From: Escherichia coli | GTDB taxonomy: Bacteria; Pseudomonadota; Gammaproteobacteria; Enterobacterales; Enterobacteriaceae | Direction: 5' to 3' (one strand) | DNA length: 64,000 bases | Assembly: GCF_002854065.1 (NCBI RefSeq) | Contig: NZ_CP024147.1 | In this document: piece by piece, positions 23,299-36,578 of the stretch | Numbering within the stretch: position 1 is the stretch's first letter | Layout of the letters: each line of letters starts with the position of its first letter | Notes under the pieces: model-generated | Database searches by the model: none | Seen by the model: only the letters and a program-made list of their open reading frames with translations | Told to the model about the DNA's origin: nothing | Program-made: the position numbers and the translations under genes

Positions 23299-23435
23299 TA
23301 CTCCGTACGCTCTCCTGCGGGAGGGCGTACTCACTCCTGTTACCCTCACAGTTTAAGATTTTCCTGCTTTCAAGATATATAACGTCGGTTTATAAACAGA
23401 CTATTATCATAGGTGGGCCAAATGAGGATAACCGG

Positions 23436-34664: not shown

Positions 34665-35426
34665 TTAACGCGCCAGCCAACCGCCATCCACGGCAATGGT
34701 ATAACCATTCACATAATCTGAAGCGCTGGAGGCAAGGAACACTACCGGCCCCATCAGGTCACTCGGCAGTCCCCAACGGCCAGCTGGAATGCGGTCGAGG
34801 ATTTCCGCGCTACGTTGTTCATCTGCCCGTAGTTGTTGAGTATTGTTGGTCGCCATGTAACCCGGGGCTATCGCATTAACATTAATGTTGTGTTTAGCCC
34901 ATTCGTTCGCCATCAATCGCGTCACGCCCATAACACCGCTTTTTGATGCGGTATAAGAAGGCACACGGATCCCGCCCTGGAAGGAGAGCATTGACGCGAT
35001 ATTGATAATCTTGCCGCCATTGCCTTGCGCGATAAAGTGTTTCGCCGCTGCCTGAGACATGAAGAATACGCTCTTGATATTCAGGTTCATGACATCGTCC
35101 CAGTCTTTTTCGCTGAACTCGAGAGCATCTTCGCGGCGAATCAATCCGGCGTTATTCACCAGGATATCAATATGACCAAACTCAGCTACCGCGCGATCCA
35201 GCAGTGCTGGAATACCATCAATCTTTCGCAGATCGGCGGTCAGGCTTAAAAAACGACGCCCCAGCGCCGTGACCTGCTTGATGGTTTCAGTCGGTTCAAC
35301 GATGTTAATGCCAACAATGTCACAGCCCGCTTGCGCCAGCCCCAACGCCATCCCCTGGCCCAGTCCAGTATCACAACCAGTGACGACCGCAACTTTACCT
35401 TCGAGAGAAAATGCACTTAAAATCAT
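34665..35426 (-). CDS. kduD: 2-dehydro-3-deoxy-D-gluconate 5-dehydrogenase (SDR)
   Basis: 253-aa ORF MILSAFSLEGKVAVVTGCDTGLGQGMALGLAQAGCDIVG (Rossmann TGxxxGxG). Confidence 0.95.
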   Translation of the reverse strand: MILSAFSLEGKVAVVTGCDTGLGQGMALGLAQAGCDIVGINIVEPTETIKQVTALGRRFLSLTADLRKIDGIPALLDRAVAEFGHIDILVNNAGLIRREDALEFSEKDWDDVMNLNIKSVFFMSQAAAKHFIAQGNGGKIINIASMLSFQGGIRVPSYTASKSGVMGVTRLMANEWAKHNINVNAIAPGYMATNNTQQLRADEQRSAEILDRIPAGRWGLPSDLMGPVVFLASSASDYVNGYTIAVDGGWLAR

Positions 35427-35455
35427 AACAATACCTTATTCGTTTATGCCCACAA

Positions 35456-36292
35456 CTAGCGCAAATCTTTAACGGCCACATGGTCCATATCATCAAAGAC
35501 CTGGTTTTCACCGACCATGCCCCAGATAAAGGTATAAGCTTTGGTTCCGACGCCGGAATGGATCGACCAGCTCGGGGAGATCACCGCCTGCTCGTTATGC
35601 ATCACAATGTGACGCGTTTCTTGCGGCTGCCCCATCATGTGGAAAACGCAGGCGTCATCATCCATATTGAAATAGAAATAAACTTCCATCCGGCGCTCGT
35701 GAGTGTGACACGGCATGGTGTTCCACAAGTTACCTGGAGCCAGCTCCGTCAGCCCCATACTCAATTGGCAGGTTTCCAGCACATCCGGGACAAAATATTT
35801 GTTAATCGTGCGACGGTTACTGGTGAGGTTATCGCCTAACGTGACTGGAGATACTTCGTCCGGTGTGACTTTTTTGGTGGGATACGTCGTATGCGCGGGT
35901 GCGCAATTGTAATAAAACTTTGCCGGAGTGGCGGTATCAATACTGGCAAAGACAACTTCTTTTGCACCTTTACCCACATACAGGGCGTCGCGGTGACCGA
36001 TTTCATAGCATTGACCATCGACAGTAATCGTACCGGCACCGCCAATATTGATAACACCTAACTCGCGACGTTCAAGGAAATAGCTTACGCCGAGTTGTTT
36101 ACCAACTTCCCCGCCAACGGAAACCGTTTTAGTTACCGGCATAATGCCGCCAACAATAATACGGTCAATGTGGCTGTAAACCATGGTGTACTCATCGGCG
36201 ACAAATACCTTTTCAACCAAAAATTCATTGCGCAGCCCCTGGGTATCCAGTGTTTTTGCGTGCGCACTGTGGATGCTCTGTCTTACGTCCAC
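35456..36292 (-). CDS. kduI: 5-keto-4-deoxyuronate isomerase
   Basis: 278-aa ORF starting [49 protein letters not shown]; 29 nt upstream of kduD. Confidence 0.95.
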
Positions 36293-36336
36293 ATCAACCT
36301 CCGATAATCAGTGAAGCGTGAAAATAGAAAACGATA

Positions 36337-36422
36337 GTGAAACACTGTTTCGTTTTCTCTATAAGGGGATGATATGCCCATGGGATAGGGTTTTCAATTA
36401 AAAATAAAACAATGTTTCATTT
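36337..36422. promoter_or_regulatory. Two KdgR-operator-like palindromes upstream of kduI
   Basis: GTGAAACACTGTTTCG (36337..36352) and AAATAAAACAATGTTTCATTT (36402..36422) resemble the KdgR box AAATGAAACANTGTTTCATTT. Confidence 0.5.
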
Positions 36423-36578
36423 TTAAGTTAAGGATTAAAAAAAGTGCAGTGTCGATCACGAATATGTCATGAGAATAGAAAAATCAGGGAGTCCTGAAAA
36501 GGTATGTCGACTCACCAGCCATCATTATTCAACAGATTAATGACGGCAGATATTTATCGGTAAGGAGGAAATGCAGAG

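What the first reader, a model, noticed from the sequence alone, without database searches (positions are those of the whole stretch)
36337..36422. Paired KdgR-type operators upstream of kduI
Two palindromes of the GAAACA-N-TGTTTC type lie in the kduI leader, consistent with KdgR control of the kduI-kduD pair.
Basis: partly seen in the sequence, partly recalled or inferred. Interest (0 to 1): 0.15.

Follow-up and report, generated by a model that had tools for sequence, protein, structure and literature searches.

The report
Two KdgR operators flanking kduI promoter
The two small palindromes upstream of the E. coli kduI-kduD sugar-acid genes are real, conserved binding sites of the KdgR-repressor type that bracket the gene's promoter, and this regulation is already in the literature, so the finding is correct but ordinary.

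Summary
The window is E. coli chromosome. kduI (35456-36292, minus strand) is followed by kduD.

Two palindromes lie in the 286-bp yqeF-kduI spacer:
- Proximal: GAAACA-C-TGTTTC, centre 36345.
- Distal: AAAACA-A-TGTTTC, centre 36412.

I built a weight matrix from five other E. coli KdgR-regulon sites. It ranks these two sites first and second in the whole 64-kb window (26.9 and 19.7 bits). About 0.035 such sites are expected by chance.

Both sites keep their position in 80 Enterobacteriaceae kduI loci. The distal site is always 15 nt from the -35 hexamer.

The sites bracket a sigma-70 promoter, TTGAAA-17-TATCAT, which has been published as an RNA-polymerase-binding promoter. Relative to the inferred start site the distal operator sits at about -50 and the proximal one at about +18.

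Published work already reports:
- KdgR boxes at kduI.
- Derepression of kduI and kduD when kdgR is deleted.
- Binding of the paralogue PlaR to the same region.
- CRP binding to the promoter region.

Novelty: already known. Interest: low.

The parts
36402..36422 (.). Distal KdgR-type operator. On the kduI strand it reads AAATGAAACATTGTTTTATTT. Core 36406-36418, centre 36412, about -50 from the inferred start site. This is the stronger and universally conserved site.
   Evidence: Scores 26.9 bits, rank 1 of the window and within the range of the training sites, 23.4-28.6. At least 17.5 bits in 80/80 orthologous loci, and always 15 nt from its centre to the start of TTGAAA. Invariant in sampled divergent E. 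coli strains. Matches the published consensus at 19/20 positions.
36335..36355 (.). Proximal KdgR-type operator. On the kduI strand it reads AAACGAAACAGTGTTTCACTA. Core 36339-36351, centre 36345, about +18 from the inferred start site and 53 nt before the start codon. This is the weaker site.
   Evidence: Scores 19.7 bits, rank 2 of the window. The core CG[G/A]AAC-N3-GTTTC is conserved in position, with spacing of 67-68 bp in 72/80 loci, but the median score is only 12.1 bits and Escherichia scores highest. Rare variants occur within E. coli.
36369..36397 (-). Sigma-70 promoter of kduI: -35 TTGAAA (36397-36392), 17-nt spacer, -10 TATCAT (36374-36369). The inferred start site is near 36362.
   Evidence: It is the only promoter-like match on the minus strand in 36200-36650, matching 10/12 consensus positions. 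ATTGAAAA and T.A..AT are invariant across genera. The same TTGAAA-17-TATCAT is listed for kduI among RpoD-holoenzyme-bound promoters in PMC3946193. The start site itself is inferred, not measured.
36445..36460 (-). CRP-like element CGTGA-TCGACA-CTGCA, centre about -90.5. The left half, TCGTGATC, is strongly conserved.
   Evidence: CGTGATC is invariant in 7 genera and at least 90% conserved over 81 sequences. It matches TGTGA-N6-TCACA at only 6/10 positions in this window. CRP bound the kduI promoter in a gel-shift assay and kduI is listed as CRP-activated in PMC8085971. Assigning that binding to this element is my inference.
36298..36302 (-). Shine-Dalgarno sequence GGAGG of kduI.
   Evidence: Read directly from the sequence. 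Invariant in the alignments.
35456..36292 (-). kduI coding sequence (5-dehydro-4-deoxy-D-glucuronate isomerase, 278 aa, GTG start).
   Evidence: ORF list and RefSeq annotation of identical DNA.
34665..35426 (-). kduD coding sequence (2-dehydro-3-deoxy-D-gluconate 5-dehydrogenase, 253 aa). It starts 29 nt after kduI and is presumably co-transcribed with it.
   Evidence: No KdgR-like site above 0.3 bits anywhere in 34665-36292. kduD mRNA rises in a kdgR deletion strain (PMC6958661).

Best explanation
These are two operators for the IclR-family repressor KdgR, and they bracket the sigma-70 promoter of the E. coli kduI-kduD operon.

The high-affinity distal operator covers about -60 to -40 and abuts the -35 hexamer. 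The weaker proximal operator covers about +8 to +28. KdgR dimers bound at these positions would exclude or trap RNA polymerase and keep kduID off. The inducer is 2-keto-3-deoxygluconate, the common end product of hexuronate and pectin-fragment catabolism. When it accumulates, KdgR leaves the DNA and the promoter fires. CRP, probably bound at the conserved CGTGATC element near -90, assists.

Shown here: the sites exist, score like other regulon sites, are far above chance, are conserved in position, and flank a conserved promoter.

Taken from the literature: derepression in kdgR deletion strains, the promoter itself, CRP and PlaR binding, and induction by hexuronates.

Inferred: the exact start site, which protein occupies which site in vivo, and the steric mechanism.
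For: - Sequence.
- Independent weight matrix (kdgT, kdgK, eda, tabA and ygjV sites, found): ranks 1 and 2 of 64 kb, with 0.035 expected by chance; 0 of 5000 spacer shuffles give two sites.
- Matrix specificity control: 163 of 169 hits of at least 15 bits in 372,639 positions of 79 related loci fall inside the kduI upstream spacer, and 41 of 43 loci with a divergent ogl gene carry a third site on the ogl side.
- Phylogenetic footprint: operators, -35, -10 and Shine-Dalgarno sequence are the conserved blocks.
- Within E. coli, the 88-bp operator-promoter block is at least 95% identical in all 5418 genomes that hold it. The adjacent 88 bp of spacer is 90-95% identical in 3453 genomes and undetected in 852.
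- kdgR is present in 5424 of 5426 complete E. coli genomes.
- Literature: KdgR box at kduI and kduD mRNA up in a kdgR deletion (PMC6958661); kduI and kduD up in a deletion that removes kdgR (PMC6892915); promoter TTGAAA-17-TATCAT (PMC3946193). A kduI promoter fusion was induced 7- to 54-fold by hexuronates (PMC3578941); by primer mapping that fragment corresponds to window 36260-36616 and so contains both operators.
Against: - I found no paper in the searchable library showing purified E. coli KdgR bound to these exact sites by footprint or gel shift. The direct in vitro binding reported for this region is for PlaR and CRP.
- The proximal site scores below all five training sites and is degenerate in many genera, so it may contribute little.
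- The start site is inferred from the promoter hexamers only.
- The training sites were picked by pattern match upstream of literature-named regulon genes. They are not footprinted sites.
Confidence: 0.9

Rival explanations
1. The sites are primarily operators of PlaR (YiaJ), the IclR-family paralogue of KdgR, which answers to galacturonate and ascorbate. On this reading KdgR is secondary or acts indirectly.
For: In PMC6958661 the kduI region is a PlaR target by genomic SELEX. The reported PlaR box, ATnTGAAACnnnGTTCAnTT, is almost the same motif. kduD mRNA rises in a plaR deletion. plaR and kdgR affect each other's mRNA levels.
Against: - PlaR gel shifts in that paper used 1-5 micromolar protein.
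- PlaR's own strongest operator lies in the plaR-yiaK spacer and contains TGAAATCAAGTTTCG. Nothing in the 10-kb plaR locus, which includes that spacer, scores above 8.0 bits with the KdgR-regulon matrix. The kduI sites score 19.7 and 26.9.
- The other genes that share this motif (kdgK, kdgT, eda) are classic KdgR targets.
- KdgR and PlaR are only 34% identical.

Co-binding by both proteins is likely. Exclusive PlaR control is not.
Confidence: 0.07
2. One KdgR tetramer bridges the two operators and forms a repression loop that encloses the promoter, so the pair works as a single cooperative unit rather than as two independent sites.
For: IclR-family proteins can act as tetramers (PMC8222616). 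The spacing between the sites is narrowly kept at 67-68 bp in 72 of 80 loci.
Against: - A spacing of 67-68 bp is about 6.4-6.5 helical turns, so the two sites face roughly opposite sides of the helix.
- The constant part of the spacing is explained by the promoter between the sites; the distal site is fixed relative to the -35 hexamer.
- Spacings of 65-73 bp also occur.
- The proximal site decays in many genera while the distal site does not.
- The tandem spacing typical of the IclR family is 18-22 bp.
Confidence: 0.1
3. The proximal palindrome acts at the RNA level, as a hairpin in the kduI leader that affects mRNA stability or translation, rather than as a DNA operator.
For: The inferred leader can fold into an extended hairpin, AGAAAACGA...UCGUUUUCU, that encloses the palindrome, at -16.7 kcal/mol.
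Against: - The fold is not unusual: z-score -1.73, and 12 of 200 shuffles fold at least as well.
- The extended arms are not conserved outside E. coli.
- No meaningful Rfam match.
- What is conserved across genera is the half-site sequence, with no compensatory changes in the stem.
Confidence: 0.02
4. The palindromes are chance matches in AT-rich intergenic DNA.
For: The spacer is only 36% G+C, and short A/T-rich palindromes are common in such DNA.
Against: Of 5000 composition-matched shuffles, 0 give two sites and 2 give one. Both sites keep their position across genera.
Confidence: 0.01

Closest known systems
KdgR boxes of the gamma-proteobacterial KdgR regulon. Consensus AAATGAAACAnTGTTTCATTT, from Rodionov et al. 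2000 and 2004 as quoted in PMC5559549 and PMC6958661. Defined experimentally in Erwinia chrysanthemi/Dickeya (my recollection: Nasser et al. 1994 and related work).
   Same: Same motif, at 19/20 and 17/20 positions. Same target gene: kduI is a KdgR-regulon member in Dickeya and in E. coli. Same repressor logic, with KDG as inducer. In 43 of 80 related loci the divergent neighbour is ogl, which carries its own box, as in the pectinolytic clusters.
   Different: Nothing essential. In E. coli ogl has been replaced by yqeF, which points the same way as kduI, so only the two kduI boxes remain. The E. coli proximal box is a better palindrome than in most relatives.
PlaR (YiaJ) box, ATnTGAAACnnnGTTCAnTT (PMC6958661).
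   Same: Nearly the same palindrome. The kduI region is reported as a PlaR target by genomic SELEX, and kduD mRNA rises in a plaR deletion.
   Different: PlaR's cognate plaR-yiaK operator scores poorly with the matrix that fits the kduI sites. The effectors differ: galacturonate and ascorbate for PlaR, KDG for KdgR.
Tandem operators typical of the IclR family, with centres 18-22 bp apart and bound by one tetramer (PMC8222616).
   Same: Two palindromic sites for one IclR-family protein at one promoter.
   Different: The centres here are 67 bp apart with the core promoter between them, so this is not the tandem-tetramer layout.
CRP plus KdgR antagonistic control of pectinolysis genes in Erwinia chrysanthemi, including kduI (Nasser, Reverchon and co-workers 1997). 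This is recalled from my own knowledge and was not retrieved here.
   Same: A CRP-like element lies upstream and KdgR operators lie at the promoter. CRP binding to the E. coli kduI promoter is reported in PMC8085971.
   Different: The E. coli CRP site has not been mapped. My assignment to 36445-36460 rests on conservation only.

Membership tests
KdgR operator (KdgR box) | A/T-flanked palindrome that matches AAATGAAACAnTGTTTCATTT | tested here: met
   The distal site matches 19/20 and the proximal site 17/20 specified positions (sequence; consensus quoted).
KdgR operator (KdgR box) | Weight-matrix score comparable to other regulon sites and well above genomic background | tested here: met
   The distal site scores 26.9 bits, inside the training range of 23.4-28.6. 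The proximal site scores 19.7 bits, below the training range but rank 2 of 64 kb. About 0.035 sites are expected per 64 kb.
KdgR operator (KdgR box) | Located at the promoter of a gene of KDG, hexuronate or pectin catabolism | tested here: met
   The sites flank the TTGAAA-17-TATCAT promoter of kduI-kduD.
KdgR operator (KdgR box) | Conserved upstream of orthologous genes in related genomes | tested here: met
   The distal site is present in 80/80 loci. The proximal core is conserved in position, with 47/80 loci scoring at least 10 bits.
KdgR operator (KdgR box) | The repressor gene kdgR is present in the organism | tested here: met
   kdgR is found in 5424 of 5426 complete E. coli genomes. It lies outside this window, so it was not checked for this particular strain.
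KdgR operator (KdgR box) | Physical binding of KdgR to these sites, and release by KDG | not testable with these tools
   Only in vivo evidence was found: kduD and kduI are derepressed without kdgR (PMC6958661, PMC6892915). No footprint of E. coli KdgR at kduI turned up in the searched library.
PlaR (YiaJ) operator | Resemblance to PlaR's cognate high-affinity operator in the plaR-yiaK spacer | tested here: not met
   No position in the plaR locus scores above 8.0 bits with the matrix that gives the kduI sites 19.7 and 26.9. PlaR binding to the kduI region in vitro is nevertheless reported.
IclR-family tandem tetramer operator | Two palindromes with centres 18-22 bp apart (about two helical turns) | tested here: not met
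   The centres are 67 bp apart here and 65-73 bp apart in the orthologous loci. The definition comes from PMC8222616.
CRP site (for the adjacent element 36445-36460) | Match to TGTGA-N6-TCACA at a class I distance from the start site | tested here: inconclusive
   The match is 6/10 in the window and 7/10 in the family consensus. The left half is invariant. The centre is at about -90.5 from an inferred start site. CRP gel-shift binding to the promoter fragment is reported, but the site was not mapped in the text available to me.

The most novel reading that the evidence does not exclude
The two operators may be functionally specialised. The invariant distal box would be the KdgR site. The fast-evolving proximal box, which is unusually strong in Escherichia, would be tuned for the paralogue PlaR or for KdgR-PlaR cross-talk. 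E. coli kduID would then integrate two different plant-sugar signals, KDG and galacturonate/ascorbate, at one promoter.
Probability: 0.1. Interest if true: 0.3.

Novelty: already known. Interest (0 to 1): 0.08.

Why it matters
It matters little beyond correct annotation. The result confirms that a reader working from sequence alone identified genuine repressor operators. It also gives a tidy map of the kduI control region: a CRP-like element, the distal operator, -35, -10, the proximal operator and the Shine-Dalgarno sequence.

kduID expression in gut E. coli responds to diet and osmotic stress (PMC3578941). A precise operator map is therefore useful for reporter design and for separating the KdgR, PlaR and CRP inputs. 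No new principle is involved.

Tried and rejected
- **RNA element:** an Rfam scan of 36100-36800 gave only a meaningless sub-threshold plant microRNA hit. The leader fold is not significant.
- **Small ORFs:** ORFs of 21-34 codons exist in the spacer. One preprint predicts a 23-aa microprotein next to kduI. I could not tie it to a specific ORF and did not pursue it.
- **Original sources:** the Rodionov 2004 paper is not held in the library. A four-term literature search for KdgR operator biochemistry found nothing. Supplements that might give the mapped CRP site are not held.
- **Locus L002:** a 'Deltaproteobacteria' MAG contig with 99% identical KduI lacks the operators. Its upstream 545 bp match no E. 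coli genome. I treated it as a chimeric or contaminated assembly and excluded it.
- **Third-best matrix hit:** position 23385 scores 16.2 bits but lacks the GAAAC core and is within the range of random top scores (mean 13.4, maximum 21.7). I rejected it as a site.
- **yeeO:** a predicted regulon member, but no site within 300 nt of the annotated start.

Full report
**What is there**

The window is Escherichia coli chromosome. A 501-bp stretch around the finding matches 5418 of 5426 complete E. coli genomes, and the flanking genes are annotated yqeF and kduI. The local gene order is lysR-ygeA-araE-kduD-kduI-yqeF-yqeG.

kduI is the minus-strand ORF 35456-36292 (278 aa, GTG start). kduD follows at 34665-35426, after a 29-nt gap. 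The 286-bp spacer between the yqeF stop codon and the kduI start holds the reported feature.

On the plus strand, GAAACACTGTTTC lies at 36339-36351 and AAAACAATGTTTC at 36406-36418. The centres are 67 bp apart, and both sites fall inside the reported 36337-36422.

**Is it more than chance?**

These are the only exact matches to RAAACANTGTTTY in 64 kb.

From these I built a symmetric 21-bp weight matrix.

- The kduI sites score 26.9 bits (distal) and 19.7 bits (proximal), ranks 1 and 2 of the window. The next best site scores 16.2 bits.
- The training sites score 23.4-28.6 bits.
- First-order Markov sequences of 64 kb contain on average 0.035 sites of at least 19.7 bits.
- Among 5000 dinucleotide-preserving shuffles of the AT-rich spacer (36% G+C), 2 gave one such site and none gave two.

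As a specificity control I scanned 372,639 positions in 79 related loci. The matrix gave 169 hits of at least 15 bits, and 163 of them lie in the spacer upstream of kduI.

**Conservation**

A genome-collection scan with the KduI protein returned 80 loci, almost all Enterobacteriaceae.

- The distal site is present in 80 of 80 usable sequences (79 fetched loci plus the window; locus L002 excluded) at 17.5 bits or more (median 24.5). Its centre is always exactly 15 nt from the start of a TTGAAA hexamer.
- The proximal site keeps its position, with spacing of 67-68 bp in 72 of 80. It is weaker (median 12.1 bits) and scores highest in Escherichia.
- Column-wise conservation shows the real core is GAAAC-N3-GTTTC with A/T-rich flanks. 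The central three positions vary freely.
- The conserved blocks of the spacer are, in order: TCGTGATC, the distal box, ATTGAAAA, a -10-like T.A..AT, the proximal box and GGAGG.

Within E. coli, the 88-bp operator-promoter block is at least 95% identical in all 5418 genomes that have it. The neighbouring 88 bp of spacer is 90-95% identical in 3453 genomes and not detected in 852. In sampled divergent strains the distal box is invariant, and the proximal box shows occasional single changes.

**Promoter geometry**

The only sigma-70-like match on the kduI strand is TTGAAA (36397-36392), a 17-nt spacer, then TATCAT (36374-36369). The same TTGAAA-17-TATCAT is listed for kduI among promoters bound by RpoD holoenzyme in genomic SELEX (PMC3946193).

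Taking the A at 36362 as the start site is an inference from the hexamers. On that basis:

- The distal 21-mer covers -60 to -40, centre -50.
- The proximal 21-mer covers +8 to +28, centre +18.
- The conserved CGTGA-N6-CTGCA element is centred near -90.5.

Only the proximal site is therefore in the leader. The distal site abuts the -35 hexamer.

**What the literature already says**

- Shimada et al. 2019 (PMC6958661) state that kduID, eda, kdgK and kdgT carry KdgR boxes, citing Rodionov et al. 2000 and 2004. They show by Northern blot that kduD mRNA rises in a kdgR deletion and call it a known KdgR target. They also report that the paralogue PlaR/YiaJ selects the kduI region in genomic SELEX and represses kduD.
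- Sastry et al. 2019 (PMC6892915) saw kduI and kduD overexpressed in a strain deleted for kdgR.
- Rothe et al. 2013 (PMC3578941) found a kduI promoter fusion induced 7- to 54-fold by galacturonate or glucuronate. By primer mapping, their fragment corresponds to window 36260-36616 and contains both operators.
- A 2021 study (PMC8085971) lists kduI as CRP-activated, with CRP binding the promoter in gel shifts.
- kdgR itself is present in 5424 of 5426 complete E. coli genomes.

**Mechanism**

The best-supported reading is classical repression by KdgR at two operators that bracket the core promoter. It would be relieved by 2-keto-3-deoxygluconate and superimposed on CRP activation. The inducer identity comes from established knowledge of KdgR in E. 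coli and Dickeya and is summarised in PMC5559549.

The distal site is the primary, conserved operator. The proximal site is auxiliary.

A single tetramer looping the two sites is possible but not favoured. A spacing of 67-68 bp is about 6.4-6.5 helical turns, the proximal site decays in many genera, and IclR-family tandem sites normally lie 18-22 bp apart (PMC8222616).

Exclusive control by PlaR is unlikely. PlaR's own operator in the plaR-yiaK spacer scores poorly with the matrix that fits the kduI sites (nothing above 8.0 bits in that locus). The reported PlaR gel shifts needed micromolar protein. Co-regulation by both paralogues, which are 34% identical, is plausible.

An RNA-level role for the proximal palindrome is not supported.

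**Limits**

- I found no paper in the searchable library with a footprint of E. coli KdgR on these exact sites.
- The start site is inferred.
- My training sites are motif matches upstream of literature-named regulon genes, not footprinted sites.

None of these changes the verdict.

**Verdict**

The feature is already known and of low interest.

Noticed in passing
window 36445-36460 (minus strand): A conserved TCGTGATC block sits about 90 nt upstream of the inferred kduI start site. It is a CRP-like half-site with a weak right half. It probably accounts for the published CRP gel shift on the kduI promoter (PMC8085971).
   Followed up: partly
L050:368-1543 and 42 other related loci; window 36579-37763: In 43 of 80 related Enterobacteriaceae loci the gene divergent from kduI resembles oligogalacturonide lyase (ogl). 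That identification is from my reading of the L050 protein sequence; it was not checked against a protein-family library. In 41 of these 43 loci a third KdgR-type box lies on the ogl side. In E. coli this position is occupied instead by yqeF (acetyl-CoA acetyltransferase), which points the same way as kduI, and the third box is absent.
   Followed up: partly
window 35383-35831: The fragment that Rothe et al. 2013 used as a separate 'kduD promoter' lies inside kduI. It has no KdgR-like site (best matrix score -0.8 bits), yet it was reported to be induced 3- to 20-fold by hexuronates. The operators described here do not explain that induction.
   Followed up: partly
window 36325-36361 (minus strand RNA): The proximal palindrome is nested in a longer imperfect inverted repeat, AGAAAACGA...TCGTTTTCT, which could form a leader hairpin. 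The fold is not statistically unusual (z-score -1.73), and the arms are not conserved outside E. coli.
   Followed up: yes
window 39421-41000: Two identical direct copies start 791 bp apart; the aligned segment is 300 nt at 100% identity. Duplicated 167-aa ORFs lie at 39436-39939 and 40227-40730. A matching strain has an IS1 element annotated just past yqeG, so these look like tandem IS1-type insertion sequences. K-12 has yqeH and yqeI here instead.
   Followed up: no
L002:1-560: A contig labelled as a Deltaproteobacteria MAG encodes a KduI 99% identical to E. coli's. Identity to E. coli starts only about 20 nt before the start codon, and the upstream 545 bp match no E. coli genome. It is probably an assembly chimera or contamination.
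   Followed up: partly
L010, L017, L036, L044, L053, about 2060-2150 nt (L017: about 1800 nt) after the kduI start: Further KdgR-type hits of at least 15 bits lie a few hundred nucleotides downstream of kduD in some Citrobacter and related loci. They may belong to the promoter of another regulon gene.
   Followed up: no
window 36293-36578: Several ORFs of 21-34 codons lie in the spacer on both strands. A preprint (PMC11188072) predicts a 23-aa microprotein next to kduI in E. coli 536 that docks onto KduI. I could not identify which ORF is meant.
   Followed up: no
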